Both the position numbers and the translations under genes were made by a program. Below the pieces are notes generated by a model. It did no database searches and had not been told where the DNA came from. It saw only the letters and a program-made list of their open reading frames with translations. From assembly GCA_035258765.1 (NCBI GenBank), contig DATFWZ010000733.1:1-47336 (forward strand): a stretch of DNA of 47,336 nucleotides. Direction: 5' to 3'. This DNA comes from Gemmataceae bacterium. GTDB taxonomy: Bacteria; Planctomycetota; Planctomycetia; Gemmatales; Gemmataceae. This document shows positions 12,633 to 43,200 of this stretch, piece by piece (within the stretch, counting starts at the first letter, position 1; every line of letters starts with the position of its first letter).

Positions 12633-12906
12633 GGCAAAGGTCCTTCTCAATGGGGTCGGGTCGACAGCCATGGCCCGGCGCAGTCCGGACCGGTTCAGTG
12701 GGCGAGCTTGAGAGGCGTGGCTTGTGCGCCCGCCCCAAGCGGAACCCGGCGCGGTTCGGAACGAGTCGGACTGGGCGAGTGCGGGGGAGAGATTAACGAC
12801 GGCCCGTCAGGATTTGACGGCGGGCCGATGAGGGTTCAATAAAAGTCGTGAATCAACCCTGGCCGTGAGCGGACCGACGGTGGCCGTGTGACCGCGACCG
12901 CCCGCT

Positions 12907-14388
12907 TCATTCGAAGACGAACGGCGTGTCCGTGCTATTAGCCGTCACCGTCACGCCGGTCGAATCGGCGCTGACGAAGCCCGACCCCTGCTGGCTGTTC
13001 GTGAATTTGTTGTGCGCGACGGGGGTGTTGTCGGCGTTCGCCAGACGAAGCCCATACCCGGCGTTGGCTTGGAATCGGTTGCCCGTCACTGCCGTTCCGG
13101 CCGCGTCCTGCAACAGGACACCGTCCGCGGCGTTCGCCGACAGGGAATTGTTCAGCAACACGTTATTCTGGCCGCCGAGCACCTGGATCCCGGACAGGAC
13201 GTTCCCGGAGCAGCGGTTGTTCGACACCCGGTTGTCGCTCGACTGCTCAAGGAAGATGCCGTTGCCCCAGTTGCCGTGCGAGTCGTTGTTCTTGACCACG
13301 TTGTTGACGGTCGCCCCGGCGGGGGCGGCGCTCGAGAACAGGTAAATGCCGTCGCTGCCGTTGTCGTGCGTGCGGTTGTTCGCGATCAGGCCGGAACTGG
13401 AAAACACGGACGCGATGCCGTTGACCGTACTGGTGCCCACGTCATTGTTTTTGACGGCCACATGATCCGAGGTGTCGATCAGGATGCCGGCGAATTCGCT
13501 GTGAGTAACCGTGTTGTTGGCCACCGCGGCCGCGCGGTCGGCCGTCCCGCCGGACTGGTAGAGCCAGACCCCGGCCTCGTTCAGGTCGAGGACATTGTTC
13601 TTGATCACGTTCTGGCTACCGGGTGTCTGGTAGAACAGGAGCCCGGCGGAGCTGTCGGTCGCCGAGTTCTGGCTGACCCGGTTGGCCACGACGCGGCCCG
13701 TCGCTCCGAAACTGATCTGGATGCCGTTCTGGGCCAAGGTGCCGTTGGCGGCCCCGCGGCCGACGACCATGTTCCCCTGGACCGTGGCCGACGATCCAGC
13801 CCCGTCGACCACCACTCCGGCCCCGACATAGTTCGTAATCCGGTTGTTCAGGACGGTGGCAGTGCCGACACTCCCGGTCCCCCGCCGGGTCCCCACCTCG
13901 ACCCCGATCCCGAAGTTCGTGTCGCTGCTCGTGGTCAGCCCGGTGATGGTGTTGTTCTTGATGGTGGCCGACCCGCCCTCGACTACCCGGACGCCCGCAT
14001 ACAGGTTGCCGTCCGTGTTCGTTGACCCGTCGAAGTTGAATCCGGTCACGGTCACGCCGACCCCGCGGAGGTCGAGGATCGCGCCACCCAGGTTGAAGCC
14101 GGCCACCGTGTCCGGGACCACGGCCGCGGGGGACTTGACGAACACCCCGGACTGGGCGGCCGTCAGAATCAGCCCGGTGTCGGCGGCCGGGACGTGCAGC
14201 TGCTCCGCGTACGTGCCGGCGTACACCTTGATGGTGTCGTGCGGGTGGGCGGCGGCGATCGCCGCGGCGATGGTCGTGAACTGCCGCCCGCCGCTGTCGT
14301 CGACGGTCAGGACGGCGGGGACGCAGCGCTCGTCGAGTGGGGTACAGGTGAGGGCGGGGCGGGGCGTCCGGCCGAACCGGTTTGGCAT
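12907..14388 (-). CDS. Right-handed parallel beta-helix repeat protein, paralog 2
   Basis: 493 aa. The leader is MPNRFGRTPRPALTCTPLDERCVPAVLTVDD, followed by beta-helix coils (..NNRITNYVGAGVVVDGAGSSATVQGN.., ..DGIYLFSS.., ..NGIFLEQSSDNRVSNN..). The ATG is preceded by AGGA. Confidence 0.8.
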   Translation of the reverse strand: MPNRFGRTPRPALTCTPLDERCVPAVLTVDDSGGRQFTTIAAAIAAAHPHDTIKVYAGTYAEQLHVPAADTGLILTAAQSGVFVKSPAAVVPDTVAGFNLGGAILDLRGVGVTVTGFNFDGSTNTDGNLYAGVRVVEGGSATIKNNTITGLTTSSDTNFGIGVEVGTRRGTGSVGTATVLNNRITNYVGAGVVVDGAGSSATVQGNMVVGRGAANGTLAQNGIQISFGATGRVVANRVSQNSATDSSAGLLFYQTPGSQNVIKNNVLDLNEAGVWLYQSGGTADRAAAVANNTVTHSEFAGILIDTSDHVAVKNNDVGTSTVNGIASVFSSSGLIANNRTHDNGSDGIYLFSSAAPAGATVNNVVKNNDSHGNWGNGIFLEQSSDNRVSNNRCSGNVLSGIQVLGGQNNVLLNNSLSANAADGVLLQDAAGTAVTGNRFQANAGYGLRLANADNTPVAHNKFTNSQQGSGFVSADSTGVTVTANSTDTPFVFE

Positions 14389-14478: not shown

Positions 14479-16071
14479 TCAGTCGGCCAGACCAGCCGTA
14501 GCCGCGTCTGCGGCCGCCACGGCTGAAGTATAGGCCAGGCTGGTGCCGGCAGCCCCGGTAGTTCCTTCCATGACCGGCGGAGTATCCGTCCGGTTGCCGA
14601 TCTGCACGGTCCCGGTCGAGTCGGCGCTGATGAACACCGACCCGGCCGCGTTCCCGGTGATCAGGTTGAAGGCGACGAGCGTGTTGTCCGCGTTCAAGAG
14701 CCGCAGGCCGAACCCGGTGTTGGCCAGCAGGGCATTCCCGACCACGGTGTTGTTGGTCGTGTCCTGGAATAGGATCCCGTCGGCCAGGTTGGAGCCGCTG
14801 CTGCCGAGCCAGATGTCATTACTCGTTCCGCCGAGGACCTTGATGCCGTTGGCGGCATTCCCTTGGGTGGTGTTGTTCCACACCTGGTCGTTGGTCGACT
14901 GCTCGAGGAAGATGCCGTTGAAGCCGTTGTCGTGGCTGTCGTTGCACCGGACCTGGTTATTGGCCCCCTGGAACACGTAGATCCCGTCGGCGTTCGGGTT
15001 GCCGAACACGTCGTTGTTCTCGACCTCGACCGTGTTCGAAGTCAGCAGAAAGATCCCATTGAGCGCTGTGTTGTTGAACACGTCGTTATTCTTCACCTTG
15101 ACCCTGTCGGATTCGGTTATCGCGATGCCGGCAGGGCCCGTATTCCCGGTGACGTCGTTGTTGACGACTTTGATCGTGCCCGCTCCGGAGGCATTAGACG
15201 ACTCGACGAGGATGCCGACGTCGTTGCCGCTGACCGTGTTCTTGGCGGCGACGCTATCCCGGCTGCCGTCCTGGAAGAAGTAGATCCCGGCAGAGTTCGC
15301 GAGCAGCGGATTGCCGCCGACGGAATTGTTGCTGATGGCGTTCTTCTCGACTCGCGCCGTGGCCCCACGGCTCACTTGCACCCCATATTGTGCAACCCCA
15401 CCATTGGCCGCCCCGCGGCCGGTGATCGTATTGCCGGTGACGGTGGCCGACCCGCCGACGCCGTCCACCAGGATTCCAGCGCCATAGTACCCGGACACCA
15501 AGTTCCCGGTCACCTTGGCCGTTCCGGCGCCCGCTGACCCGGCCAGCCGGTTGGTCCCGATCTGAACGCCGATCCCGGCAGCCGGGTCCGACGAGTTGGT
15601 CGGCCCGACCACCGAGTTGTTGCTGATCGTCGCCGATCCGCCATTGCGGACCCGGACTGTAGCAAACAGATCGCCGTCGCTGGTCGATCCGTCGATCTGG
15701 AATCCGCTCACTTTGACGTTGGTGGCGGTTACATCCACGAGGGCACCGCCGATCGTGGGCGAGGTCGGGACCACGTCGGCCGGGGCGGAAATCACCACAT
15801 CCATGCCGCTACTCGGCTTGGCCAGGAGTTTCAGCCCGTTCGTGGCAATCGTCAGTTGTTCCGCATAGGTGCCCTTATAGACCTCGATCGTGTCGTTGGG
15901 GTTGGCGGCGTTCAGGGCCGCGACAATGGTGGTGAACGCGCCCGGCTTCTGGACCCCGTCGTCGTCGACGAACAGGACGGCGGGAACTTCTCGGGCCTCG
16001 AGCGCGACGCAGTTCAACGCGGGCCGCGGGCGGACGGACGCACGGTGGTTCCGAAGCAGGCGAAAGACCAT
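14479..16071 (-). CDS. Right-handed parallel beta-helix repeat protein, paralog 3
   Basis: Roughly half identical by eye to paralog 2 over the first ~230 aa (VPAVLFVDDDG..TIEVYKGTYAEQL..GGSATISNN..GRGAANGGVAQYGVQV). The track start is a TTG at 16086. The ATG at 16071 has GAGG upstream. Confidence 0.8.
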   Translation of the reverse strand: MVFRLLRNHRASVRPRPALNCVALEAREVPAVLFVDDDGVQKPGAFTTIVAALNAANPNDTIEVYKGTYAEQLTIATNGLKLLAKPSSGMDVVISAPADVVPTSPTIGGALVDVTATNVKVSGFQIDGSTSDGDLFATVRVRNGGSATISNNSVVGPTNSSDPAAGIGVQIGTNRLAGSAGAGTAKVTGNLVSGYYGAGILVDGVGGSATVTGNTITGRGAANGGVAQYGVQVSRGATARVEKNAISNNSVGGNPLLANSAGIYFFQDGSRDSVAAKNTVSGNDVGILVESSNASGAGTIKVVNNDVTGNTGPAGIAITESDRVKVKNNDVFNNTALNGIFLLTSNTVEVENNDVFGNPNADGIYVFQGANNQVRCNDSHDNGFNGIFLEQSTNDQVWNNTTQGNAANGIKVLGGTSNDIWLGSSGSNLADGILFQDTTNNTVVGNALLANTGFGLRLLNADNTLVAFNLITGNAAGSVFISADSTGTVQIGNRTDTPPVMEGTTGAAGTSLAYTSAVAAADAATAGLAD

Positions 16072-16175
16072 GAGCGGCGACCTCAATGGAGAGAGAAAGA
16101 ACGGATCTGGGTTCGACGGATGCGAGCAAAATCAAATAACAATTGTCTGATGTTCCCGTGGTAGGGTGTGACCTC

Positions 16176-26765: not shown

Positions 26766-27332
26766 TCAGTCCGCGGTGTCGAGCGGCCGGAGGGCCATCC
26801 CCTCGCAGGTCACGGACGCCCCCTCGCGGATGAAATCAACGGCGACGACAAATCGGGCCCCGGCGGCCGCCCGGACGACGGTCCCGCGCAGGCCAGCCAG
26901 CGGGCCCGTGGTGATCTCGACTGCCTGCCCGGCCCGGAGGTCGCGCTCGCGCTGGACGGCCCGCCCGAGCCCGAGCAGAGCGTGAAGCCGCCGCAAGTCC
27001 GACACCAGCGCGGCCTGGTCCGACACGACCAGGGCCCGCACCACTCGCCCGGTGTGGAACGCGTCGAAGTACTGGTCCTGGTCGGCCCGCAGGAACACGT
27101 ACCCGTCGAAGAGCGGGACTTCGGCCACCCGGATCCGGCCGGCGGACCGGTGCGGGCGGCGGATCGTTGGGAGGAAGAACGGGACCGCGCGGGCGAGCAG
27201 GTCGCGGGCGAGGCCCTTCTCTTGCCGGGGCTTGGTGTGCAGGACGCGCCACTCGACCCCGGCTGTCGGGCCGACAGGCGCGTCCAGCACGTCATCCGGA
27301 AACAGGGCCGGCTCGGCAGGCAAGATGGGCAT
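26766..27332 (-). CDS. NusG-family paralog (RfaH/UpxY-like specialised antiterminator candidate)
   Basis: NGN-like domain: WRVLHTKPRQEKGLARDLLARAVPFFLPT...EVPLFDGYVFLRAD. KOW-like motif: LRAGQAVEITTGPLAGLRGTVV. It is the first gene of the minus-strand polysaccharide operon. Confidence 0.8.
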   Translation of the reverse strand: MPILPAEPALFPDDVLDAPVGPTAGVEWRVLHTKPRQEKGLARDLLARAVPFFLPTIRRPHRSAGRIRVAEVPLFDGYVFLRADQDQYFDAFHTGRVVRALVVSDQAALVSDLRRLHALLGLGRAVQRERDLRAGQAVEITTGPLAGLRGTVVRAAAGARFVVAVDFIREGASVTCEGMALRPLDTAD

Positions 27333-28216: not shown

Positions 28217-31200
28217 ATGGCCCGGAAGACCTCGACGAAGCGGCTGGACCGGACGATCAATCGACGGAAGCGGGCGACCCGCGACCGATTCGCCGCCCGG
28301 CGGCCTCGACTCCGATTCGACAACCTGGAAGCCCGCGAGATGCCGGCCGCCTTCAGTCCGGGGAACCTCATCGTCCTTCAGGCCGGCGACAACAACCAAT
28401 ACGCGACGCAGGCTCCGCTCTACCTGAATGAATTGACCCCGGGCGGCAGCTCGGTTCAACAGGCCGCAATCAACAATACCAACGCCGTGGGCGGGACCGG
28501 CAATCAGCCGATCACCATCGACCTGACGGCCGCGGCTGGCAACGGTCAGCTGAACCGCACCTACGACGGGGCCGGACTCGTCTTCGGCGGCGTCGACTCG
28601 GGCGTGAACAACGGCGGGTACACGCCGCCCCAGTCACCCACGGGGAATGCGAACCGCGTGATCGCCGTCGTCGGCAACGACCCCGCGGCTGCCACCTTCG
28701 TCAACACCACGACCTACGGCCCGTTCTACGTCGGCGACGACAACCGCGGCGGGGTTGCCGAGGGCCTGACCGGCCCGGTCTGGGCGTTCGGCCATCCAAA
28801 CCAAGCCGGCGGGGCCGTCTCCCAGGGCGTCCTCTACTTCCCCGGGCCGAACGGGGACGGATCGCTACAGCCGCCGGGCACGGCCGGCATCACCTCCCAG
28901 AGTGGCGTCCAGGTGTCCGGCCAGACCAACATCCGGGGCGGGTTCATCGGGTTCGACAACCGGGTGTACTGGACGACCGCCGGGTCCACCAGCCTGGGCC
29001 TGGCGGGGGTCTACACGTCTACCGTCAAGGCCCTGCCGACAGACAACTCCCCCGGTAACGACCAGCCGATCGTCAAGGCCCTGTTCGCCGCCTCCAAGGT
29101 GGGCGGGATGTACCTGGCCGACGTTAACGGCGACGGGGTCCTGGACAACGGCGACCGGATCTACCTGAACGACGACGGGACGGTCGGCGGGGCCGGGACC
29201 GGCGGTCTGTACATGGCCGTGTTTGACACGACCCGGTGGGGGACTCCGGTGACGGGCCAGGCTGCCGGCTGGAGCCCGATGGTCCGGATCGCCGAAGGCG
29301 TAATCGACGCCCAGCCGACCCCGCAGAATACCGCCCAGCTTCGCGGCCTGGCCGGCACCGTCCTGGCCAACAGCAGCGTCCAGTTGTACGCCAGCGAGTT
29401 TGACAACGTCGCCGGAAACAACAGCTACGTGCTTGGCTGGAACGACGCCACCGGCGGCGTCTTCCGGGTCCAAAGCGCTTCGATCAGCGGCACGACTGCG
29501 ACCATTACCCTGTCCGAAGCTGTCCCGGCCGCGATCCGCGGTACGACCACCTGGCTGTCGGTCAACTCGGTCGGCAGTGGCAGCGGCACCTTCCCCACCG
29601 CCGGCGGCTACAACGGCGTCTGGAACGCCACGGTCAGCGCCGACGGTCTCAGCTTCACGTACACGAACACCAACCCAGGCCTGACCAATCTGAGTGGCAG
29701 CGCCATCGGGAACGGGACGGTCGGCCAGTGGCTCAACACCGGTGCGGTCGGCGGGGTGCTCGACCCGCAACCGGTGCCCGCGGCCTCCCAGATCATCCAG
29801 ACATTGGCCGACGGCACCTTGGCGGCGAACCCGGCCAAGGCCCAGAAGGCTCTCCGCGGTGTGGCCTTCGCCCCGGTCGCGGCCACGACGCTAAGCAGCC
29901 TCGCCGTGGATGGCCTGACGTCGGAGACTGTCCCCCCCAATACCTCAGTTACTTTCAGCGTGCACGTGGCGAACCCCCAGGCGGGGGTGACTCTGACCGG
30001 CCTCAAGGTCACTTTTGTCGACGTGACCACAAACACCGCGCTCGGCCAGGGGACGATCAACGCCAGCGGGGACGCGTCGCTGGCAATCCCGGTGGTCGGT
30101 CAGCACATCGTCAAGGCGTACTTTGCCGGCGGCGGGGCTCAGGCTCTCGCCCCGGTCACGACAGCTTCGACCGTCACCGTGAACGCGTCCGGGGCAACCG
30201 CCTCGTCCACTTCCCTAGCCGTGACCATCGGCGGCGCAGCGACCACCCAGGCCGCCATCGGCCGGGCGGTCACGCTGACCGCCACGGTCACCTCCGGGGC
30301 GACCGGGACCGTCAGCTTCCGCAACGGCACCACCTTGCTCGGCAGCGCGACCATCAGCGCCGGCTCGGCCGTCCTGACCACGTCGTTCTCCGTCGCCGGC
30401 CCGGCCAGCATCACCGCCACGTACAACGGCGACGCCACTTTCGCCACCAGCTCCAGCGGCGCGGCCTCCTTGACGATCGGGAACAACGCCACTGCAGCCA
30501 TCACGACATCGGCGAACAACGTCGCCGTCGGCGCCACCCCGACTTACACCGCGACCCTGACCGGGCCGCTCGGGACCGTGGCCGGGACCGTTCAATTCCT
30601 CCTGGACGGCGTCAACCTGGGCTCGGCCCAGACGCTCAATGGCAGCGGCTCGGCGTCGGTTACCAGCACGGCCCTGACGGCCGGCAGCCACGTCGTCACG
30701 ATCAAGTTCACCCCGGCCGCCACCAGCCCGTATAACGCGTTCAACGTCGATACCGTGACCGCGGCCAACGGGGTGGCCCTGATTGAGACGGCCAGGCAGG
30801 CGCTGACCCCCGGGAATCTGCTCGCCGTCCAGCGGGGCGACGGCACCACCAACCTGGGAAGCTCGGGCTACCTCGTCTTCCTCGACGAATACCGGCCGGA
30901 CGGCACATTGGTCCAGCGGATCGCCCTGCCCAACGCCGATAGCGGCACCACGCACGCCTTGCTGTTGAGCGGTCAGAACGGCGCAGAAGGCCTGCTCCAA
31001 CAGTCCGGTAACGGCCAGTACGTGACCATCGTCGGGTACGACGTGCCGGTTGGCCAGCAGTTTGTCACCTCGACCCAGCCGTACCAGTTCGGCCGCACCA
31101 TTGCCCGCATCGACGCGGCCGGGAACGTCGACACCAGCACCAGCATCACGACCAGCCAGACGGCGATCACGGCCGCGACTTGGGCCGGCGGCGTCGCCAC

Positions 31201-34200
31201 GATCACGGCGGCCAACACCCTCAAGGTGGGCGACCCGGTGACGGTGTCGGGGGTGACGCCGGCGGGCTTCAACGGGACGTTCACGGTCTCCGCGGCCACC
31301 GCGAGCTCGTTCACCTACGCCCTGGCCACCAACCCGGGTGGGGCCGGCACCGCGTTCGGCACGGCCACCGGCCCGTCGGTGCCGTTCAACCCGGAAGACG
31401 TGGTCACCAACGACGGAACTGGGTTCTGGATCGCCAGCAGCACCGGGACGGGCGACACGGTCGACAGCGGCATCCTGTTCGCCCCGCTCGGGGCCTCGAC
31501 GGCCAAGCAGGTGGGCCCGATCAACCACGGGGCCGCGTCAATCGCCATCTATGGGACCGGCGCGAGCGCCCAGCTCGCGGTGGTCAACCGCGGGGCCGGC
31601 GAACTGGGCGTGCCGCAGGGCCTGGCGACTGTGGGCACGGGCTTGCCCCAGACCGGGCTCGGCGTCCAGGCCATCACCACCCTGGTGAACGACGGGACCG
31701 GCACCGTGACCGTGACGCTCGGGGCGGCCCCGAACTTTACGGCCGGAAACCAGGTCGTGATCTCCGGCGCGTCGGTCGCCGCGTACAACGCCGCCTGGCA
31801 GGTGACCGGTGTCAGCGGGAATACGTTCACTTTCTCGGGCGCCCCGGCCGGGGCGGGAAGCGGCACCGGCGGGACCGCGACCGCCAACCAGCTGCTTGCC
31901 AACTTCCCCAACCTGGAGACCGAGTACGAAGCGGTATTCCCGACCGGCCGGCAGCCCGAACAGTTCGTCTTCCTGAACACGAATGACGGCAGCACGAACA
32001 ACCCGAACCTGGCCTACCTGGCCGACCAGGCGTACGGGCTACTCAAGTTCTGGAAAGCCAATGATGGCAACTGGCACCTGGGCCAGCTCGGGTCGCATGC
32101 CTTCGGGCAGAAGCTGGTGTTCGCCGGCGGGGCTACCGGGGTCATAGCGACCATCGTCAACCCGGGCACTCCGCAGGCAAAGGTCAACATCTTCGTCACC
32201 GGGAGTAACGTCCAGCAGGCCAACCCGAACCAGATCGCCGTCTTCCAGGACCAGAATGGGGCCCCGGCGGGCACGTCCGGAACGGGCGTGGACCAGGGCT
32301 TCAGCTCGGGCAATTTCAACACGCTGGCATTCGTCGGCGGCACGCCGGGGCTAGGGACGCCGGCCAGCCCGAACGGGAACATGAACTTCGCCGGGCTGTC
32401 GTTCGTCCCTGGCTTTGTGAGTGGCAACCTGGTGGTGGACCGGGTCGGCACCGGGACGGGCACGCTGTCGAGTAGCGCGACGGCCGGCTTCCTCGACCAG
32501 TACGACCCGACGCAGCCCAACCAGACGGCCACCAAGGGGTCGGTCGCTCTGCCGACCGGCGGCGACGTCTCGACGATCACGGGGGCGACCTGGTCGAACG
32601 GGGTCACCACCATCACCGGTTTCAACGACTACAAGGTCGGCCAGCAGGTGACCGTCTCCGGGGTGACCCCGAGCCTTTACAACGGGACGTTTATCGTCTC
32701 GGGTTTGACCGGCACCACCACTTCGACGATTACCGGGGCCACGTGGGCGAGCGGCCAGGCCACGTTTACCGCGAACAACAGCTACGTGGTCGGCCAGACC
32801 GTCACGGTGACCGGGGTAAATCCGGGCGGCTACAACGGGGCCTGGACGGTGACGTCCGCGACTGCCACGACCTTCACGGTCGCGATGCCGAATAACCCGG
32901 GCACATTTGTGTCCGCCCCGGCAAACGACGCCGTCGGCAGTGCGACCGGGTTCACGTACACGCTGCCGCTCACGGCCGTCGCCACGGCCTCTCGGGCCAC
33001 CGACGCGGTGAATATCACCGCTGCCACCTGGGCGAACACTAACGGCGGCACGGTCACCATCACCGCTGCCAACACGTTCACGGTCGGGCAGACGGTCATC
33101 ATCTCGGGGATCACCCCGACCGGCTACAACGGGACGTTCGTGATCGCGTCCGCAAACGCCACGAGCTTCACCTACCTGCTGCCGACCAACCCCGGCACCG
33201 CCACGGTGACCGGGGCCAAGGCCACCCCCGCGTCTCCGGTCACCAACCTGGCCGACGGGGCAACGTCGACTGCCATCACGGCGGCGAGCACGGCGAGCCA
33301 GACGGCCAACATCGCCTCGGTCAGCAAGGCGGCCGTTGCCGTAAACATCACCGCGGCGAGCTGGTCGGCCGGCAAAGTGACCATCACCGCGGCCAACAGT
33401 TTCGTCGTGGGCCAGGCGGTCACCATCGCTGGCATCACCCCGGCGGGCTTCAACGGCACGTTCACGATTGCAACCGCCACCAGCTCAAGCTTTACGTACA
33501 ACCTGGCGGCGGACCCGGGCACGCCTGTCACCTTTGCGTCCACCGCGACCGCGACGGGATTCACGGCCACCATCACCACCGCCGCCAGCCATAGTTTCAT
33601 CGTCGGCCAGAGCCTGACGATCGCGGGGATCACCCCGGCCGGGTACAACGGGACCTACACGATCGCGTCGGTGCCGTCCGCCACGACGTTCACTTACAAC
33701 TTGCTCGGCGGTGACCCCGGGGCGGGGACTTCGACCGGCACGGCCGCCGGCCTGTTCGCCACGATCTCAGCCAGCACCGGGGTGAACACCGCCCTGGTCG
33801 GGCAGAGCGTAATCGTCGCCAACGTCAACGGGAGCATCAACGGCAACTACAACGGGACCGTCAAGATCACGGCAGCGACGGCCACCACGCTGACGTACGC
33901 CGTCCCCACAGACCCGGGCACGGCCGACCTGACCGCCGGCCCGACCGTCACCTTCAACACGGCGACCGTCACAGCGGCCAACTCGTACGCGGCCGGCAAC
34001 AGCGTCGCCGTCGCCGGCGTCACCGGGGCCACGACGTTCAACGGCGCGTTCCCGGTCGTCTCGGCCAGCCCGACGAGCTTCACTTACTACCTCCCATCGA
34101 ACCCAATCGCGGGCACCAAGTTCGGGGCGGCCAACGTCCTGGGCGCCGTGACGGAAAGCGGGTCGGCGACCGGCGAAGGCTACCTGAGCAACTCGGCCGA

Positions 34201-37200
34201 CGGGCACAGCCTGGTCGTCGCCGGCTACAACCAGACGCCCGGCGGCAGCACGTCGGCCAACAACACCTCGGTCGGCGTAGTCAACCCGGCCGGCGTAATT
34301 GACGTGACCACGCAGATGCCCTCGCAGGGCGGCAGCGTCCGGGCGGTGGCCTCGGCCGACGGCCTGGGGATGTGGGTAGCCACCAACACCGGCATCCGGT
34401 ATGTGCCGTTCGGCAATACCCCGGCTCAGACGGCGATTTCGGCGGCGAGCTGGTCGCCCACCGGTGGCGGGACGGTCACGATCAGCGCGGCCAACAACTT
34501 CGTCGTCGGGCAACTCGTTGCCATCACGGGTGTGACGCCGAGCGGCTACAACGGGGCGGTCACGATCCTGTCGAGGACCGCGACGAGTTTCACGTACGCC
34601 CTCGCCACGAACCCGGGGACCGCGACGAACCTCAGTAGCGCGTTTGTCCAGCCGCTCCCGACCCTGATCACCAACGAGATTGCCTCGGCTCAGGGCCAGG
34701 CGCCCACGGTGGTCGAGATCGGCGCCAGCAACCCGTCCGCCCTGGGAGCCGTCCCGGGCCAGCTGGTCGGCACGGCCGGGGCGCAATTCCAGAACAACGG
34801 CGTTCCGTCGGTGGACGGGCCGTTCTACATCGGCAGCGGCCTCGGCCAGTCCGCCGGGCAGGCGGTCAGCATTCTTGGCACCGGGACGGATCCGAACTGG
34901 CCGGCCGTCCGCGACATATTTAACAACTTCCCGAGCACCAACCAGATCGCCATCAGCCCGAGCGGCAACACCATCGTGGTGGCGGACAGCCGAACCGATA
35001 GCAAGGGCGGTATCCTGGTTTATTTCCAGGCGCTCCAGAATAGTTGGGTCCGGCTGGCCAACCTGCAGCAGGACAACTTCGCCATCACCGCGGCGAGCGA
35101 GCCGGTCACCACGGCCAACATCTCGGCGGTCAGTTTCAACAGCGCGACCATCTCAGCCGCGAACTGGATCAACGGCACCGTGACGATCACGACGTCCGCG
35201 GCCCACGGCTTCGCTGTCGGTCAGAAAGTGATCATCAACGGGTTCACGAACGCCGGTTACAACGGCCAGTTCACCATCGCCTCCGTGCCCAGCTCGACGA
35301 CCTTCACCTACGCGGTCGCCGCGAATCCCGGTACGCCGAGCTTCACCAGCCCGACGGCGACGCTGGCCAACGTGACGGTGACAACGTCGGCCGCTCACAA
35401 CTTCGTCGCGGGCCAGAACGTGACCATCGCCGGGGTGTCGCCGGCGGCGTACGTCGGTACGTTCGCAATCGCGTCCGTGCCGGATTCCACCCACTTCACG
35501 TACGTGCTGACCGCGACGACGAACCCGGGCAGCCCGACGCTGACCAGTGCGACTGCCACGGTCAACTCGTCGGCGACCATTACCACTTCGTCGCCGGTCA
35601 ACTTCACGGTCGGCCAGACGGTGTCGATCTCGGGCGTTGACCTGCCGGCCTACAACACAAATAGCGCTGTCATCACCAGCGTGGCTCCCAGCGGGCTGTC
35701 GTTTACCTACAACCCCGGCTTCAGCAATCTGGCCAGCTCCGGGCCAGGCGTATTCGGTGCTTTTGCCAACGGGCTGGACGGCGGGTTCCGGGCCATCACG
35801 GCCGACTGGAGCAACCCGACTCACCCGGTCCTGTACGCGACCACGACGGCGAGCAGTGGGAACCGGCTCTTCCGGATCCCAATGACGCTGGATGAGACCA
35901 CCGGCACGGCGTCACTGGGCACCCCGGTCCTGCTGGCCACCGCCCCGGCCAACACCGCGTTCCGCGGTGTCGCCTTCGCGCCGACGAACCCCGGGACCAC
36001 CGCGAGCACGACCAGCCTGTCGGTCTCCGGCAGTCCGGGCACTTACGGGGCGGGGGTGAATTTGACAGCGACGGTGACGACCGGCGCCACCGGCTGGGTC
36101 AGCTTCCGGACGACGGGGGGCGTCGAGATCGGGGCCGCCCCGCTCAGCGGCAATACCGCGACGCTGTTCACCACGGCGAATCTGCCGCCCGGTGTCTACA
36201 CCAACGGCATTGTCGCCGTATACACGGGCGACAACACGTTCGCCCCGAGTACGTCGGCGGCGCAGTCGGCGACCATCAACAAGGCGGACACCTCAGTCGG
36301 GCTGGCGTTGACCCCGCCGACTGTCGGAACTGGCCAGACCGAGACGCTCGCGGCAACCGTCACGCCAACGTCAAGCGGTGCCCCGACGGGCACGGTCACC
36401 TTCACCGATACCACGACGAGCACCGTGCTGGGCACGGCCCCCGTGACCCAGGTCATCGTGAATCAGGGTGGCTTCCCGGTGATCACGTTCCAGGCCGTGC
36501 TCGCGACCACGTTTGCGGTCACGGGCAGCCACAGTATCAGTGTTGCGTACAGCGGGGACAGTAACTTCAATAGCAGCACCGGGACGAACACGCTTCAGGT
36601 CGTCCAGTCGACGACGACCACGGTGACGTCTGACAATGCCAACCCGGGCAACAATAATCAGACGCTGAATCTGACGGCCAAGGTGACGGCCTCGAGCGGG
36701 ACCCCGGCAGGTTCGGTCCAGTTCTACGACGGCTCCGTCCCGATCGGGAGCCCGGTAACCCTGAACGTCAGCGGCGTGGCGACGCTCGCGGTCAAGACTG
36801 CCGCCGTCCAGTCGGTGACGATCAAGAGCATCTCGCAATCGACGTCCGCAGGGACGACCACGGTCACGGTCACGACCAACACGACGAACCCGTTCACCGT
36901 CAGCCAGTCGGTGACCATCGAGGGCGTGGCGACCGGCGCCTCGCCCGGGAACCCGGTCCAGGGCGGCTACACGGGCGGCTACAACGGCACGTTCACGGTG
37001 GCCAGCGTCAGCGGGAACCAGTTCACACTGGTGAACAACGCCGCCGCCGGCCTGCCGACCGACACAGTCGGCGGCATGGCGATCGGCCGGGGCGTGTTGA
37101 CTCCCGGCATGCACTCGCTCAGCGCGATCTACAACCCGGGTGCAAACGCCTTCGGCAGCAGCAACGGCATCCACCAGCAGTCTGTACAAACGATCGCCTT

Positions 37201-40200
37201 CGGGGCCAACGATCAGTTCATCGAACGGCTGGGCGACGGCCTGACCGCCCTCAACACCCAGCCCCCGCTGACTTTCAACGGGTCCGTCGGGGCGACCAAC
37301 TTCATCGACGAGTTCACCGCGGCTGGTGTTCTGGTCCAGTCGATCGCGCTGCCCAGTGCCGATTCGCAGAGCTTCGCGATTGCCAGCATCAGCGGGGATG
37401 GGACGACCGTGACGGTGACGACGTCGGCTGCCAACGACCTCGCGACCGGTCAGAAGGTGACCATCGCGGGCGTATCGGGCGGGACCGGCACGTTCAATGG
37501 CGACTTCACAATCACCGTGACCAGTAGCACGACCTTCACCTACTTGGCTTCCGGCAACGGGACCGGGACCGCCACGGGGGCCACGGCCCAGGGGGTAGTC
37601 CACGCGGTGGTCGGCCACGGACAGCAGTCCACCACCGGCCAGGTGACCCTGTCCGGGGACGGGGCATACCTGTTCGTGACCGGGTACGACCAGAACCCGA
37701 ACCCGGCGAGCCCGGGCTATGGCGCGCTCGCGTCGGTGTCGGCCAATACCACTCCGCGGTCGATCGCCCGGATCCGGTTCGACGGCCTGATCGAAACCGA
37801 GGCGTTCACCGCCGGCTCGACCGGAATCGCCACCACCGGCAACTTCAACGCCATCTACAGCCCGGATGGCAGCCGGTTCTATGTCGGCAACGCCGGTACC
37901 GGCAGCATCTACTACTTCTCGTCGTTTAACACGTCCGCCACGCCGCAGGGCAGCAACAGCCTCATCTCGGCGGGCGGTAACTTGTTGAGCACGCCGGGTT
38001 ACAGCGTCATTGGCCTGGAGTCGTACGGCGGCAATCTGTTCGTGATCGGCGGCGGCAGTGGCGCCGGCACCAACTTCCGGGTCGCACAGGTGGGCACCGG
38101 ATTCCCCACGACCAACACGGGGCTGTCCGTCACGCAGCTGCCCGGCATCCCGACCGACACAACAACGCTTGCCCAGCCGATCTTCTTCCCGGTGGACGCC
38201 TACTTCACCCACCTAAACGGCGCCGGCACCGCACTAGACACCATCTACGTTTCCGACAACGGCAGGAACTTCGGCCAGGGGTCGATCACCAAGTGGTCGC
38301 TGGTCGCCGGCAACTGGGTGGAGTCGACGGTCTCGCTGCCGTACTCGAACACCACCGAGCAGCTCGGCTTCTACTATCTGTCCGGCGCCACGAGTGGGAA
38401 TACGGTCACTCTGTACACGAACTACGGCAACGGCGGGAATGCCGACTTCGGGCCGGGCTTCCTGTATTCGATGACCGACGCCTCGGGCTACAACGTCAAC
38501 CCGGGCATCCCGATCTCCGCGGCGAGTTGGTTGGCCGGGACGGTCACCATCACCGCGAACAACAACTACGCCGCCGGGCAGTTCGTGACCATTACCGGCG
38601 TGGCGAATGCAGCCTACAACGGGCGGTTCGTCATCACCTCGGCGAACGCCACCAGCTTCACCTACGCCCTGGCCTCGGACCCGGGTGCGTCCGGCAGCGT
38701 GACTGGGGCCAAGGCCCTGTCGATCAACACGGTGTCCAAGGTGGCCCCCGGCCCGGTCGGCGGGCCGTGGTACGGCAACGAGACGTTCCGCGGCGTTGCG
38801 GCCGCCGCGAAGGCGATCGCCACGACCTCGACCCTGACGCTGAACGGTATCTCGCCGACGACAGCTGGCCTGTCCATCGAGATCGGGTACAACCCGACGG
38901 TCACGGCTCAGGTCACCCCGGCCGGAGGGCCGGTGTCCAACCTGAGCGGGCTGACCGTTCAGATCCTCGATACCAGCAACGGCAACGCCGTGGTCGGCAC
39001 TGGCACCCTGGACGCAACCGGCAAGGCGACGATCACCCTGACGACCGGCACCGGGGCCGGCCAGTTGAACACCGGCAGCCACAACCTGGTCGTCTCGTTC
39101 GCCGCAGCGTCCACGTTCGCCGGCAGCCAGTCGGCCCCCCAGAATCAGGTGATCGACGCCGTCTTCAAGGTCGACACCCTGGTCCAGACGGCCACCGGGT
39201 ACGTGGCCACGTTCAACGCCTTGGTCAACCCCGCCAACCTGAACATTAACGCGGCCACTGCACCGTCGGCCAAGCTCGTGACCGGGTCGACCCCGGTCGG
39301 CGGGTCGGTCGTGTTCGACAGCGTCCCGACCCAGGCGACGTTTGTCGGGACCGGGACGTTCGTCACGGGTGTGCCGCTGGCCAAGACACTGACCGGCGGC
39401 GCCAGCTACACCGCCACCGTGGCCGGGACCGGAACCAACGCCTTCTTCGACACCCTCGGCCACGTCCTGGGGAGCAGCACCAGCACCGGCGGGTCCGATT
39501 TCATCAACACCTTCACTTCCTCGAACAGCACGACGGCCGCGATCGTTAGCGCCCCGTTCCTGGCCCGCGGATTCCACCAGGCGGTTAACCTCCCGGCGAA
39601 CACCTCCAGCGGGCTGCCGATCAGCATCAGCATCCCGGCCGGCGGGTCGGCCGTGACGTCAGCCTCCTTCGACGTCTTCTTCAACACGGCGGACCTGACG
39701 GTGACCGGCGGGTCGATCACGGCCGCGGGGTTCACCGGCACAGTGACCGTCGTCACCCCCGGCCAGGTCCACATCACCCTCAGCGGCGGCAGCCTGGCCG
39801 CCGGCACCACGACGACCGTGGCCAGCCTGACCGCCAGCGTTCCCGACACCGCCCCGTACAAGAACAAGGAGATCCTGGACGTCCGCAACATCTCGATCAA
39901 CGGCGGGACGAACAACGGCCTGGACGGCAGCGCGGTCCACGTCGCGGCCTTCGTCGGCGATACCGACGGGTCGAAGTCCTACACCGCCCAGGACGCGTTC
40001 AACGTCAACCAGGTGGCGGTCGGGACGGCCCCGGGCTTCTCGGCTTACCAGTTGCTCTCCCCGATCATCATCGGCGACACCAACACGGATGGGGCGGTGA
40101 ACGCCCAGGACGCGTTCAACGCCAACCAGGTGGCGGTCGGCAACACGAGTGCGGGCATCCCGGCCCTGCCGACCTTCAACATCACCACCGCGACCGAAGC

Positions 40201-43200
40201 CGGCACGACGGTGACCATCACGACCTCGACGGCGCACAACTTCACCGTCGGCGAGCAGGTCACGATCAGCGGCGTGTCGGTGTCCGGGTACAACGGCACG
40301 TTCGCGATCACCGGGGTGACGGCCACGACCTTCACCTACACCGCCGCCGCCGGCCTGGCCAGCGGCACCGGGGGGACCGCGGCGGCTGCCAGCCCGGCCG
40401 CCGGCGGCCCCGACCCGAAGCTGTATTTCCTCGACGTGTCCGCAACGCCCGGTTCCACGGTCACCGTGCCGGTCTTCCTGGACATCAACGACCCGGCCGG
40501 GCTCACTTACAACTCGGACGACATCGGGATCATCTTCGACCCGACGAAGTTCTCCGTGTCCAACGTCCGCAGCGGTAACTACTCCAGCACCCTGATGCCG
40601 GCGTCCAGCATCAGCACGGCCTCGAACGTCGATAACGTGGCCGGCACGATCCGGATCGGCCAGTTCTACAATCTGGCCACCGCCCCGTTCCTCCCGAACG
40701 GGACGAGCGGGCAGATTGTCCTGATGGACGTCACAGTCCTCGCCGGGGTTACGGCGGGGACGAACACGCCGCTGAATTTGGCCGCAAACGTCTCCGCCAC
40801 CGTCACCGAGGTCAACGGCGGGGCGGCAACGCTTAATCCGGCCCCGACCAACGCCTCGAACGACGCGGTAGACGCCACGTTCCACGTCGTCGCCCCATCC
40901 GCCACCCTGTCCTTCCCGAACGCCAGCAGCAGCGGCGGGTCGACGATCACGGTCCCGGTCAACCTGACGTCTGGGCCGGGCGGGTTCACCTACAACTCCG
41001 ACGACCTGGGCGTCACGTTCGACCCGACCAAGCTCCAGGTGCAAAGCGTCAGCAGCGGCGACTACCCCGGCATCGGGTCGACTAACATCAGCACTGCGTT
41101 TAACATCAACAACACCGCTGGCACGATCCGGATCGGCCAGTTCTTCAACCAGGCCACCGCCCCGTTCCTGCCCGCCGGAACGACTGGGCCCATCGCCAAC
41201 ATCACGTTCATGGTCCTGTCCTCGGCCCCGGCCGGGCCGACGTTCCTGGACCTGGCCCAGAACGTCTCCTTGACCTTCACCGACGTCAACGGCGGGGCGA
41301 TCGTTCTCAACCCGGCGCCGACAAACGCCACCAACGATCCGGGGGTGGACGGCGTCTTTACCGTCACCGTCCAGCCGAATCAGCCGCCGTTCGACTCGGT
41401 GCCCGCAGCCTCGGCGATCCCCAAGACGCTATTCAACCCGCAGGCCATCACCGGGCTGACCGACCCGACCCCGAACGTGCTGACGCTCTCGGGCAGTAAT
41501 GCGATCGTGGTGTCCGACCCGGACGCCGGGACTGCGAACGTGACGACCACCGTCAGCCTGACCGGGAGCCCGGTCCTCGGATCGACCGGCCCGGTCGGGA
41601 TCCTGACCCTGGCCAGCACCACTGGTTTGACGGTCAGCGGGAACAACACGGCGTCAGTCACGCTGACCGGCAAGATCACCGACATCAACACGGCCCTGAA
41701 TGGGCTGAAGTACACGCCGGGCGCCGGGTTCTTCGGCACCGCGACCCTGACCGTCTCGACCAACGACAACGGCAACAGCGGCTTCGGCGGGCCGATGACC
41801 GATACCCGGTCCACGAGCATGACCGTGGTGGGGCTGTTCTTGAGCGAGATCGACCTGAACTCGAACAGCACCCTGAGCGCGCCGAGCGCGAACCAGTACC
41901 TGGAAATACTCTCGTCGGTGCCGAACTACACCATCCCGAGCGGGGTGTTCGTGGTCGGGATCGAGGGGAACAATTCGCAAGTCGCGGACGCGTTTGGCAA
42001 TAGCACAACCAACAACCCCGGGGCGGTGCAAGACGTTTTCAACCTGACCGGGTTCACCACCGGATCGAACGGCTACCTGGCGCTGCTGGAGAAGGGCCAG
42101 GCGTACTCCTCCGCCGCGGGGGTCGTCAACTCGGCCGGGAATGTCGTGACCAACAGCGGCACTCAGTCGGGCTTCGGGAACGGCGGCGGGTCGAGTGTAT
42201 TCGGGTCGCTGACCGGGGTTCACACCGGTAAGGACCAGAACGCAGTGGGAGTCCGTCTGGGGACCAACCCGGACCTGCCGGGCGACGGGGCGACCGCCGC
42301 CGGGGAACTCTCCTGGGATATGGAACAGGGCTCGGCCAGCTACCTGCTGATCCAGGCCCCGAGCGCCCCGGTGGTGCAGACCTCCACCACCACGGCGACA
42401 GACATCGACGGCAACAACGATGGCGTCCCCGACGGCACGGCCTACGCCTCTTGGAACGTGATCGACGGCGTCGGCGTTCTGGCCGCCCCGCTCTCCCCGA
42501 CGCTCGGAGGGACGTACACCCAGCTCGGGAACGACTTCACCTACGCCCCGCTGACATTCAAGGACAGCACGAACACCGGCGCCGTGCTGACCGGCTCGAA
42601 CCTGGTGACCGTGCCATTCACGGCGAGCTACCTCGGACGGATCAGCCAGTTCACCGGGTCGTCGTCGGCCGACTGGTTGGCCAGCGTCCCGACGGGCTCG
42701 GCCGGCCTGTTCACGCTGGGGGCTGGGACCGCGACCTCGAACACGAACTACTCCGGCCAGAGGCTCAACCACATCGGCGGCCCGAACTTCTGGGCCGACC
42801 AGATGAAGGTGGTGGTGAACGACGGGACAAACGCCCAGCACGCACAGGTCGGCGAGTTGACCCTGACCTTCGCGGCGCCCGTCACCCTGGCCGGGACCCC
42901 GGACCGGTTCCAGATCACCTCCGCGGTAGATAACGGTGCCACGCTCAATACCGCGACGGTCACCACCTCGGCCGCCCACGACTTCCAGGTCGGCCAGACG
43001 ATTAACATCATCGGGGTGACGGGGACCGGTTGGAACGGTAACAAGGTGATCACCGCCCTGACCTCCACCACGATCACGTTCGCCCGGGGATTAATCACCG
43101 CGAACGGGACCACCGGCGCCTCTTCGTTCGCCCAGGCCACCGGGTCGCTGAACACCAGCTTCCGGAACATTTTCCAAGTGCTCTCGACGGCGAGCATCAG

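What the first reader, a model, noticed from the sequence alone, without database searches (positions are those of the whole stretch)
28217..28354. Shared non-Sec, non-Tat N-terminal leader (basic stretch + L-[ED]-x-R-x-[VM]-P-A) on the giant protein and all three beta-helix proteins
Four proteins expected to be extracytoplasmic start with 10-35 very basic residues and no hydrophobic h-region. A conserved motif then follows. In the giant protein it is RRPRLRFDNLEAREMPAAF (28310-28354). In beta-helix 3 it is RPRPALNCVALEAREVPAV (15976-16017). In beta-helix 2 it is TPRPALTCTPLDERCVPAV (14311-14352). In beta-helix 1 it is RRSALRVDGMEDRTVPAT (12516-12557). The mature-looking domain begins immediately after the P-A. 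By contrast, the protease, OPX, PEP-CTERM protein and the lipoproteins in the same window carry classical Sec or lipoprotein signals. I recall seeing L-E-x-R-type N-termini on many large planctomycete proteins. I know of no defined export or processing pathway for them and cannot cite one. This may mark a distinct targeting or maturation route.
Basis: partly seen in the sequence, partly recalled or inferred. Interest (0 to 1): 0.7.

Follow-up and report, generated by a model that had tools for sequence, protein, structure and literature searches.

The report
Known planctomycete N-terminal export-type leader
The shared basic leader ending in L-E-x-R-x-V-P-A on the giant protein and the three beta-helix proteins is real. 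It is the already published "Planctomycetes-specific signal peptide" in its Gemmataceae form, and its export machinery is still unknown.

Summary
The regex [LM][ED].R.[VM]PA occurs exactly four times in the six-frame translation, against about 0.03-0.04 expected. Each hit lies 18-44 residues into one of four long ORFs: the giant protein and three tandem beta-helix proteins. None has a hydrophobic core or a possible upstream start.

The motif is not new. It belongs to the class described by Studholme et al. 2004 (Pfam PF07595 Planc_extracel, RRLxxExLExRxLLA). Its Gemmataceae form LxLExLExRxxP was reported in Tuwongella immobilis by Seeger et al. 2021, on 52 proteins including 8 of the 10 longest. 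NCBIfam's LEPR-XLL is a look-alike.

New supporting evidence:
- Orthologues of the giant carry intermediate or canonical forms.
- Distant beta-helix homologues carry ordinary Sec signal peptides at the same place.
- AlphaFold leaves the B3 leader disordered, and the fold starts right after P-A.
- A leader profile finds 627 protein clusters, almost all matched at the N-terminus, with adhesin- or enzyme-type extracellular passenger domains.

It most likely acts as an export or sorting signal. The route and any cleavage remain unproven. These are new members of a known kind, of modest interest.

The parts
28217..28348 (+). Leader of the giant protein (M1-A44). It is a strongly basic stretch followed by the core L32-R-F-D-N-L-E-A-R-E-M-P-A44 (core 28310-28348).
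   Evidence: A GGAG Shine-Dalgarno-like site lies upstream of ATG 28217 and no upstream start is possible. The 9-residue hydropathy maximum of 1.42 lies only at residue 46, after the P-A.
28217..43876 (+). Giant gene (5219 aa). It has Big_3_5 Ig-like domains, 14-18 copies of a small GQxVxIxGV...YNGxF module, dockerin-like Ca-binding loops and no cysteine.
   Evidence: Homologues and orthologues carry LE-x-R leaders.
15979..16086 (-). Leader of beta-helix protein B3. The gene was called from M at 16071. The core is L-N-C-V-A-L-E-A-R-E-V-P-A (16017-15979).
   Evidence: In the AlphaFold2 model residues 1-30 are disordered (pLDDT 38-55) and the fold starts at residue 32, right after P30-A31.
14479..16086 (-). 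Beta-helix protein B3 (Beta_helix/NosD). The fold resembles AlgG/AlgE epimerases, PL6 lyases and tailspikes.
14314..14388 (-). Leader of beta-helix protein B2 (M1-A25). It is short and basic, with the core L-T-C-T-P-L-D-E-R-C-V-P-A (14352-14314).
12907..14388 (-). Beta-helix protein B2.
12519..12671 (-). Leader of beta-helix protein B1, with the core L-R-V-D-G-M-E-D-R-T-V-P-A (12557-12519). The true start is probably M14 at 12632, which puts the motif at residue 31.
10896..12671 (-). Beta-helix protein B1.

Best explanation
These four N-termini are the Gemmataceae-type form of the planctomycete N-terminal leader known as Planc_extracel, the "Planctomycetes-specific signal peptide".

**What the leader looks like.** It is 25-45 residues long, has a median net charge of about +7 and has no hydrophobic core; the one confident AlphaFold2 model (B3) leaves it disordered. 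It ends in the linear motif L-x-h-[ED]-x-L-E-x-R-x-V-P-[AST]. It is a portable module placed in front of unrelated extracytoplasmic passenger domains, in the position where homologues from other phyla carry a Sec signal peptide.

**What is inferred.**
- The leader is an export or sorting signal read as a short linear motif by a dedicated, still unidentified factor.
- The leader/mature boundary lies at or next to V-P-[AST].
- Removal of the leader at that boundary is plausible but unproven.

**Local roles (inferred).** The three beta-helix proteins would then act on the exopolysaccharide made by the surrounding Wzx/Wzy locus, outside the cytoplasm. The giant protein would be a surface adhesin-like fibre.

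**Confidence by step.** Identity with the published motif class is about 0.9. An export-signal function is about 0.65. Cleavage at V-P-[AST] is about 0.4.
For: [quoted passage not shown] T. immobilis has 52 genes with LxLExLExRxxP. Twenty of the proteins were detected, 8 of them only in the SDS (envelope) fraction, and 8 of the 10 longest proteins carry the motif. The window cores match 4-5 of the 7 fixed positions of that motif exactly. In the giant and B1 the mismatches are conservative; B2 and B3 have C and T/V at the L and E positions.

**Bridging forms in homologues of the giant.**
- LNVELLEVREVLTAF, LSIELLEKREVLTDF and LGIELLEDRVTPST.
- LFVEQLERRDLLTAF in L002 and LFVEPLEDRVVPST in the Gemmataceae MAG L001.
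- P0071 has LECLDPRLVPAV.

**Pfam scores.** PF07595 hits homologue leaders at the right place but below its threshold of 25.5 bits: 21.3, 17.2 and 14.3 bits.

**Conservation across homologues.** Sixty leaders of B3 and giant homologues give L(-5) 51/60, E(-2) 55/60, L0 57/60, E 59/60, R 60/60, V 45/60 and P 54/60.

**Sec signal peptides at the same position.** The six most distant beta-helix homologues carry classical Sec signal peptides instead. Their predicted cleavage regions, such as ASA|AN-ITVDDD, align with VPA|V-LFVDDD.

**Structure.** In the AlphaFold2 model of B3 (pLDDT 89.4), residues 1-30 are unstructured and the fold begins at residue 32.

**Global search.** A leader profile found 627 cluster representatives at E<=0.001 among 1.84 billion. 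Of the 144 new top hits, 142 have the motif, 132 of them within the first 60 residues, with a median position of 33.

**Passenger domains.** They are Beta_helix/NosD, FG-GAP, cadherin-like, Big, Calx-beta, PKD, malectin, RTX and similar extracellular-type families. There is no shared C-terminal signal.

**Hydropathy.** The 9-residue hydropathy maximum has a median of 0.63 over 169 leaders.

**Fold and context.** The B3 fold matches periplasmic or secreted polysaccharide epimerases and lyases. The locus is an EPS locus. It is syntenic in L003, where all three beta-helix genes again carry the leader.
Against: - The window's four leaders do not score on PF07595 or on NF012209, even at E<=10. Membership therefore rests on intermediates and on the published Gemmataceae motif, not on the curated models.
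- No experiment shows export, the translocon or cleavage. The T. immobilis fractionation is indirect.
- No candidate machinery lies next to the genes.
- The N-terminal position of the profile hits is partly favoured by a profile that starts with Met.
- No signal-peptide predictor was available. "No h-region" rests on hydropathy only.
Confidence: 0.72

Rival explanations
1. The proteins leave the cell by a type I (ABC/MFP/OMF) system that reads a C-terminal signal. On this view the N-terminal LE-x-R leader is an accessory element, not the export address. It could serve as a retention or anchoring stub, a chaperone-binding site or a quality-control tag, as in giant RTX adhesins.
For: - The look-alike LEPR-XLL domain sits on giant proteins that have C-terminal RTX or serralysin-type regions, or that have T1SS-like genes next door.
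- Some leader-bearing Gemmataceae-type proteins contain RTX nonapeptide repeats: a HemolysinCabind hit and 8 GGxGxD repeats in P0179.
- The B3 fold resembles the AlgE epimerases, which are T1SS substrates (established knowledge).
- The giant ends in Ca-binding dockerin-like loops.
Against: - No ABC, MFP or OMF genes lie in the window or next to the orthologues.
- Most leader proteins have no RTX repeats and share no C-terminal feature.
- The leader occupies exactly the place of a Sec signal peptide in homologues, which argues for an addressing role at the N-terminus.
Confidence: 0.13
2. It is a highly degenerate Sec-dependent signal. The basic N-region and the short amphipathic N-terminal element engage SecA/SecYEG, and V-P-[AST] is a type I signal peptidase site obeying the -3/-1 rule.
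For: - V at -3 and A/S/T at -1 fit the SPase I rule (established knowledge).
- The boundary aligns within about one residue with predicted SPase sites of Sec-type homologues.
- The region before the motif is strongly basic, with a median net charge of +7.
- Many leaders start with a short hydrophobic or basic element of the type M-F-L-S-x-L-R-K-L-F.
Against: - There is no hydrophobic core. The 9-residue hydropathy maximum has a median of 0.63 and a 95th percentile of 1.53 over 169 leaders, against 2.5-3.8 for genuine signals in the same window.
- Conserved charged residues (E, E, [DE], R) sit where the h-region should be.
- The same genome uses ordinary Sec, lipoprotein and prepilin signals on neighbouring genes.
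Confidence: 0.1
3. It is not a targeting signal at all. The similarity would reflect common descent of paralogues or chance, or the segment would be a structural N-terminal cap or a cytoplasmic regulatory tail.
For: - B1-B3 are tandem paralogues.
- The curated HMMs do not recognise the window leaders.
Against: - Four hits against about 0.03-0.04 expected.
- The leader is shared with the unrelated giant and with proteins carrying more than 20 different passenger families.
- It is disordered and lies outside the fold in the model.
- It has been conserved for longer than the passengers, and it is restricted to the N-terminus.
Confidence: 0.03

Closest known systems
Tuwongella immobilis (Gemmataceae) "Planctomycetes-specific signal peptide", motif LxLExLExRxxP (Seeger et al. 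2021, PMC8567305)
   Same: - The position at the N-terminus is the same.
- The L..L-E-x-R-x-x-P spacing, with Pro at +6, is the same.
- It sits on the longest proteins of the genome and on enzyme- or adhesin-type domains.
- The window comes from a Gemmataceae-like planctomycete: the best genome match is a Gemmataceae MAG.
   Different: - The window copies are slightly degenerate at the upstream L-E positions: F-D, C-V, C-T and V-D.
- B1 has M instead of L at L0.
- The 2021 text read here does not mention the conserved N-terminal M-x-x-S-x-L-R-K-L-F element or the fixed spacing of about 31-33 residues.
Pfam PF07595 Planc_extracel (Studholme, Fuerst & Bateman 2004; R. baltica consensus RRLxxExLExRxLLA)
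   Same: - It has a basic stretch followed by L..E.LE.R, and it lies at the N-terminus of predicted extracellular proteins.
- It was proposed as a novel export signal.
- Homologues of the window proteins hit the model at the right place with 14-21 bits.
- My synthetic canonical peptide scores 29.6 bits.
   Different: - The tail is V-P-[AST] instead of L-L-[AS].
- The window leaders give no hit even at E<=10, and none of 30 leader proteins hit at E<=0.001.
- The gathering threshold is not reached.
NCBIfam NF012209 LEPR-XLL (LEPR-8K) N-terminal domain of giant proteins
   Same: - It has a short N-terminal L-E-P-R-x-L-L motif without a hydrophobic core, on giant surface or RTX-type proteins.
- Its function is likewise unknown.
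- P0071 has a hybrid form, L-D-P-R-L-V-P-A.
   Different: - The window leaders and their homologues do not score on it.
- It occurs in Proteobacteria, Chlorobiota and other phyla, often together with T1SS features.
- Homology to the planctomycete motif is not established.
Classical Sec (type I) signal peptide
   Same: - It occupies the same position in front of the same beta-helix domain in distant homologues.
- It has a basic N-region.
- It has small residues at -3/-1 of the boundary.
   Different: - The leader has no hydrophobic h-region.
- It has conserved acidic and basic residues in the core.
- It is about twice as long.
ESPR extended signal peptide region (PF13018) and double-glycine/PCAT leaders
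   Same: They are conserved N-terminal linear motifs on large secreted proteins. Double-glycine leaders also lack an h-region and are cut by their exporter.
   Different: - ESPR is followed by a normal signal peptide, and here none follows.
- There is no G-G site.
- No C39-ABC transporter is nearby.
- This resemblance comes from memory and was not tested.

Membership tests
Gemmataceae LxLExLExRxxP leader (Seeger et al. 2021) | Sequence motif L-x-L-E-x-L-E-x-R-x-x-P. | tested here: met
   The four cores are:
- Giant: L-R-F-D-N-L-E-A-R-E-M-P.
- B3: L-N-C-V-A-L-E-A-R-E-V-P.
- B2: L-T-C-T-P-L-D-E-R-C-V-P.
- B1: L-R-V-D-G-M-E-D-R-T-V-P.

Four to five of the 7 fixed positions match exactly; in the giant and B1 the others are conservative changes, while B2 and B3 have C and T/V at the L and E positions. 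The paper itself allowed up to 4 mismatches to the PF07595 consensus.
Gemmataceae LxLExLExRxxP leader (Seeger et al. 2021) | Located at the extreme N-terminus, with no classical signal peptide. | tested here: met
   The motif starts at residue 18-44 of the ORFs, and no upstream start or hydrophobic stretch exists. In 169 related leaders the motif sits mostly at residues 28-36.
Gemmataceae LxLExLExRxxP leader (Seeger et al. 2021) | Carried by very long proteins and by proteins with cell-surface-type domains. | tested here: met
   It is on the 5219-aa giant with Big_3_5 domains and on the beta-helix enzymes. Passenger families in 30 other carriers are of extracellular type.
Pfam PF07595 Planc_extracel | Score at or above the gathering threshold (25.5 bits) on the curated HMM. 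| tested here: not met
   There was no hit for the four window leaders at E<=10. Homologue leaders score 7.7-21.3 bits. A synthetic canonical peptide scores 29.6 bits, so the model was searchable.
Pfam PF07595 Planc_extracel | Basic residues followed by L..E.LE.R at the N-terminus of planctomycete proteins predicted to be extracellular. | tested here: met
   The planctomycete origin is supported by DUF1559/N_methyl genes in the window and by the Gemmataceae MAG relative.
NCBIfam NF012209 LEPR-XLL | Score at or above the curated cut-off (17 bits) on the 24-position model. | tested here: not met
   There was no hit at E<=10 for the window leaders or the homologue leaders. Synthetic canonical peptides score 17-39 bits.
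Sec type I signal peptide | A hydrophobic h-region of about 7-15 residues between a basic n-region and a c-region with small -3/-1 residues. | tested here: not met
   Within the first 70 residues, the 9-residue hydropathy maxima (1.2-2.1) all lie at or past the P-A boundary, so no hydrophobic core sits inside any of the four leaders. Genuine signals in the window score 2.5-3.8. The n-region and the V-x-A-type boundary are present. No SignalP-type predictor was available.
Tat signal peptide | The [ST]-R-R-x-F-L-K motif followed by an uncharged h-region. | tested here: not met
   By inspection, R-R pairs occur (giant A-R-R-P-R-L-R-F), but they are followed by D, E, R and E rather than an uncharged stretch. 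No predictor was run.
Export signal (functional class) | The leader is necessary and sufficient for translocation across the cytoplasmic membrane, and the mature N-terminus is defined. | not testable with these tools
   Only indirect evidence exists:
- Sec signal peptides at the same site in homologues.
- Envelope-fraction proteomics in T. immobilis.
- Passenger domain types.

The most novel reading that the evidence does not exclude
The leader is the address tag of an undiscovered Sec- and Tat-independent export or sorting route of Planctomycetes. That route may be related to whatever reads LEPR-XLL leaders on giant proteins in other phyla. Its tripartite design would act as a ruler-like signal that is recognised and cut at the V-P-[AST] boundary. 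The design is a short amphipathic N-cap, a basic Pro-rich spacer that places the motif at residue ~31-33, and L-E-[DE]-R-x-V-P-[AST].
Probability: 0.3. Interest if true: 0.8.

Novelty: new member of a known kind. Interest (0 to 1): 0.3.

Why it matters
How planctomycetes put proteins of several thousand residues, and many enzymes, on or outside their unusual envelope without a recognisable Sec or Tat signal has been open since the motif was noticed in 2004.

This window does not answer that question, and the motif itself is not a discovery. It does supply clean test cases. One is a small family of about 500-residue enzymes in a syntenic EPS locus. Its distant relatives use ordinary Sec signal peptides at the same residue, which makes an ideal pair for reporter-swap experiments.

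The window also shows that the curated models PF07595 and NF012209 miss the Gemmataceae form. Annotation pipelines will therefore label such proteins as lacking any signal.

Tried and rejected
- **Curated models.** NCBIfam and Pfam scans of the four leaders, as whole proteins and as 50-70-residue peptides, gave no N-terminal family hit.
- **Word-indexed search.** Searching with the four-leader alignment found only 14 candidates and none scored. The query was too short for that tool.
- **Homologue leaders.** The leaders of the giant's homologues gave nothing on NF012209, and only 7.7 bits on PF07595 for one of them.
- **Giant structure.** The AlphaFold2 model of the giant's first 500 residues was useless (pLDDT 33.9). 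Leader disorder is therefore shown only for B3.
- **Export machinery.** The search for conserved neighbours of the giant in L001 and L002 turned up only the ubiquitous DUF1559 genes. There are no ABC/MFP/OMF or other secretion genes in the window.
- **Shuffling.** The first dinucleotide-shuffle script timed out. I replaced it with mononucleotide shuffles and a frequency-based expectation.
- **Papers not available.** Studholme et al. 2004 is not held, and Supplementary Table S9 of Seeger et al. is not held as text.
- **Literature.** Searches found no paper that defines the pathway.
- **Rejected readings.**
  - A Tat signal, because the core is charged.
  - A structural cap of the beta-helix, because the leader is disordered and sits on unrelated passengers.
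  - Chance, because there are 4 hits against about 0.03-0.04 expected.
Full report

Yes. The giant ORF (28217-43876, +) begins MARKTSTKRLDRTINRRKRATRDRFAARRPRLRFDNLEAREMPAAFSPGNLIVLQ. The three tandem minus-strand beta-helix ORFs begin as follows:
- B3 (14479-16086): ...MVFRLLRNHRASVRPRPALNCVALEAREVPAVLFVDDDG.
- B2 (12907-14388): MPNRFGRTPRPALTCTPLDERCVPAVLTVDDSG.
- B1 (10896-12671): ...MRLDWITKTVRPTRRTAARLSRRSALRVDGMEDRTVPATFNV.

The regex [LM][ED].R.[VM]PA hits exactly these four places in the whole six-frame translation. The expectation is 0.043 from residue frequencies and 0.025 from 200 shuffles.

Each ORF start is the first possible start after a stop. The in-frame upstream sequence contains no hydrophobic segment. 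The giant's ATG has a GGAG upstream. B1 more likely starts at M14, which has a GAGAAGGA upstream.

Within the first 70 residues, the most hydrophobic 9-residue window of each of the four proteins scores 1.2-2.1 and lies at or past the P-A boundary. None lies inside a leader. The values are 2.5-3.8 for the Sec signal peptides of the trypsin-like protease and the PEP-CTERM protein, for the lipoprotein signals of OPX and two small proteins, and for the prepilin-type N-termini of two DUF1559 proteins. The conserved residues use different codons in the four genes, so conservation is at the protein level.

B1-B3 are paralogues. Within the window, the independent datum is therefore the sharing with the unrelated giant.

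**2. What is it?**

It is a catalogued motif. A synthetic canonical peptide that I designed (RRRLQLESLEPRTLLSAS) hits Pfam PF07595 "Planc_extracel" at 29.6 bits and NCBIfam NF012209 "LEPR-XLL" at 17.3 bits.

Seeger et al. 2021 (PMC8567305) state that the R. baltica consensus RRLxxExLExRxLLA (Studholme et al. [quoted passage not shown] They report the following for the Gemmataceae member Tuwongella immobilis:
- 52 genes carry the form LxLExLExRxxP.
- 20 of the proteins were detected by proteomics.
- 8 of those were found only in the SDS-soluble envelope fraction.
- 8 of the 10 longest proteins carry the motif.

The window cores are L-R-F-D-N-L-E-A-R-E-M-P, L-N-C-V-A-L-E-A-R-E-V-P, L-T-C-T-P-L-D-E-R-C-V-P and L-R-V-D-G-M-E-D-R-T-V-P. 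They are this published form with a few substitutions, conservative in the giant and B1 and less so in B2 and B3. Other papers treat PF07595 as a signal-peptide family or cite it as an export signal.

The window is planctomycetal. It holds DUF1559/N_methyl genes. The best genome match of the giant is a Gemmataceae MAG (L001, 47% identity).

**3. The curated models nevertheless miss it.**

The four leaders give no hit on PF07595 or NF012209, even at E<=10. The link is made by intermediates.

Homologues of the giant's first domain carry these leaders directly in front of the same F-[ST]-P-G-N-L-[IV] start:
- LNVELLEVREVLTAF.
- LSIELLEKREVLTDF.
- LSVELLEKREVLTSF.
- LSIECLERREVLTAF.
- LFVEQLERRDLLTAF, in the MAG L002.

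P0008 and L001 have L-E-D-R-V-[TV]-P-S-T. P0071, a beta-helix homologue, has L-E-C-L-D-P-R-L-V-P-A-V, a LEPR/VPA hybrid. PF07595 matches several homologue leaders at exactly the right residues but below threshold: P0018 at 21.3 bits, L002 at 17.2 and L001 at 14.3, against a gathering score of 25.5.

**4. Anatomy from many copies.**

Sixty leaders from homologues of B3 and the giant, aligned on the motif, give these counts:
- L(-5) 51/60.
- R(-4) 32/60.
- [VLI](-3) 48/60.
- E(-2) 55/60.
- L(0) 57/60.
- E 59/60.
- [DE] 43/60.
- R 60/60.
- V 45/60.
- P 54/60.
- [AST] 60/60.

Over 169 leaders, the motif's first Leu sits at residues 28-36 in most, with a mode of 31-33. The net charge before L(-5) has a median of +7. 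The 9-residue hydropathy maximum has a median of 0.63 and a 95th percentile of 1.53.

Many copies also start with a conserved element of the type M-F-L-S-x-L-R-K-L-F-x-P-K or M-x-x-R-S-W-I-R-K-L-F, followed by P-I-R-K. The window's giant lacks it.

**5. Evidence bearing on function.**

(a) Signal swap. All complete close homologues of the beta-helix proteins carry the leader. The six most distant ones (P0073, P0075-P0079) carry ordinary Sec signal peptides instead. In the alignment their cleavage regions (AFA|KD-ITV, TQA|AT-LCV, ASA|AN-ITVDDD) fall within about one residue of V-P-A|V-LFVDDD.

(b) Structure. In the AlphaFold2 model of B3 (mean pLDDT 89.4), residues 1-30 have pLDDT 38-55 and no secondary structure. 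The first strand starts at residue 32, directly after P30-A31. The leader is therefore a disordered extension and not part of the fold.

(c) Global distribution. A 39-position profile of 46 leaders was searched against 1.84 billion cluster representatives. It found 627 proteins at E<=0.001. Of the 144 new top hits, 142 contain the motif, 132 of them within the first 60 residues, with a median position of 33. The tails are VPA in 62, VPS in 43 and VPT in 18. The few internal matches look like over-extended start calls. One caveat is that the profile begins with Met, which favours N-terminal matches somewhat.

(d) Passengers. Thirty long carriers contain Beta_helix/NosD, FG-GAP, MBG_2, SdrD_B, Big_3_5, Big_9, cadherin-like, DUF4394, RTX repeats, YDG, Laminin_G_3, malectin, Calx-beta, Chlam_PMP and PKD domains. 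These are extracellular or adhesin-type families. The proteins share no C-terminal feature.

(e) Local context. The window is a Wzx/Wzy-type exopolysaccharide locus. It holds glycosyltransferases, a flippase-like protein, a Wzy_C/TPR protein, OPX, a CpsB phosphatase, a Wzz/BY-kinase, a WecA-like initiating transferase and a NusG paralogue.

The B3 model resembles mannuronan C5-epimerases (AlgE4, AlgE6, periplasmic AlgG), PL6 lyases, RbmB and phage tailspikes. The beta-helix proteins therefore plausibly modify or cut the polymer outside the cytoplasm.

The arrangement kinase-OPX-protease-Wzy-three beta-helix genes-glycosyltransferases recurs in L003. All three beta-helix genes there again carry the leader.

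**6. How it most likely works.**

*Shown:*
- It is a portable, basic N-terminal linear motif, disordered in the one confident model (B3).
- It replaces a Sec signal peptide on extracytoplasmic-type domains.
- It is restricted to protein N-termini.

*Inferred:*
- It is an export or sorting address read by a dedicated factor.
- The boundary V-P-[AST] is where leader and mature protein meet.
- It may be a processing site. V at -3 and a small residue at -1 would even fit signal peptidase I.

*Unknown:*
- The translocon.
- Whether cleavage occurs.

*Rivals:*
- **T1SS-type export with the leader as an accessory.** This is supported by the LEPR-XLL giants with RTX or T1SS context and by RTX repeats in a few carriers. 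It is weakened by the lack of T1SS genes nearby and of any common C-terminus.
- **A degenerate Sec signal.** This is weakened by the absent h-region and the conserved charges.
- **No targeting role.** This is contradicted by points (a)-(d).

**7. Novelty and verdict.**

The motif, its N-terminal position, its enrichment on giant and surface proteins, its Gemmataceae variant and the "novel export signal" hypothesis are all published (2004 and 2021). These four proteins are new members of a known kind.

This analysis adds four things:
- The Sec-signal/leader swap within one domain family.
- The disorder and boundary evidence.
- A global count of 627 clusters.
- The observation that PF07595 and NF012209 do not detect the Gemmataceae form.

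A possibly undescribed detail is the tripartite leader of fixed length.

The underlying question of which machinery reads the leader remains open and interesting. This finding does not bring it much closer, so the interest score is 0.3.

Noticed in passing
Related proteins P0013-P0223; window 12632-12519 (B1 from M14): Most Gemmataceae-type leaders are tripartite. They have an N-terminal element of the type M-x-x-[SR]-[SW]-[LWF]-[RI]-[RK]-[LFW]-[LF], then a basic Pro-rich spacer (often P-I-R-K), then the LE-x-R-x-VP[AST] motif. The motif's Leu sits at residue 28-36, with a mode of 31-33. The text of the 2021 paper that I read does not mention this. The window's giant lacks the first element.
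   Followed up: partly
Window 10896-16086 (-), and L003 7997-13571: Three tandem beta-helix (NosD/AlgG-like) genes sit between the glycosyltransferases and a Wzy_C/TPR gene of an EPS locus. The arrangement is syntenic in a relative that is 46-47% identical. The fold matches polysaccharide C5-epimerases, lyases and tailspikes, so they are probably polymer-modifying or polymer-cutting enzymes.
   Followed up: partly
Window 19057-19713 (-); L003 3986-4642: A small trypsin-like serine protease with a classical Sec signal peptide is conserved inside the EPS locus, next to the Wzy and beta-helix genes. The leader's invariant Arg (LE[DE]R|xVPA) would be a tryptic site. Any link between the two is pure speculation.
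   Followed up: no
Window 26766-27332 (-): A NusG paralogue (KOW/NGN, 188 aa) lies at the head of the minus-strand EPS operon. It probably acts as an operon-specific antiterminator of the RfaH/UpxY type.
   Followed up: no
Window 44010-44660 (+): A PEP-CTERM protein lies immediately downstream of the giant gene. It has a Sec signal peptide, and its C-terminus reads IPEPGTLVLTGLFAAGLAAASIRRLRRPAVG. No exosortase was recognised among the window genes scanned. The multi-pass membrane protein at 5505-6797 has only a weak DUF3681 hit.
   Followed up: no
Window 28217-43876 (+): The giant protein has no cysteine and is 49% T+G+A+S. It contains 14-18 copies of a module of roughly 60 residues (GQxVxIxGV...YNGxF) that weakly hits Pfam E1_FCCH. 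It also has several Big_3_5 domains and dockerin-like Ca-binding loops at about residues 3954 and 5194.
   Followed up: partly
Window 44803-45804, 45788-46252, 46252-47265 (+): Two DUF1559 (SBP_bac_10) proteins with prepilin-type N_methyl N-termini flank a small lipoprotein. This is the heavily expanded planctomycete family. A DUF1559 gene also lies upstream of the giant's relative in L001.
   Followed up: no
Window 28865-43350 (-), several ORFs of 150-613 aa: Long antisense ORFs inside the giant gene have GC3 of 0.87-0.96. They mirror the coding strand's codon bias in a 66% GC sequence and are almost certainly not genes.
   Followed up: no
P0061 (643 aa, homologue of B3): It starts with the N-terminal element MFRKFLAELFRPTRR, but no LE-x-R motif was found in its first 110 residues. 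This may be a frameshift or fusion, or a leader variant.
   Followed up: no
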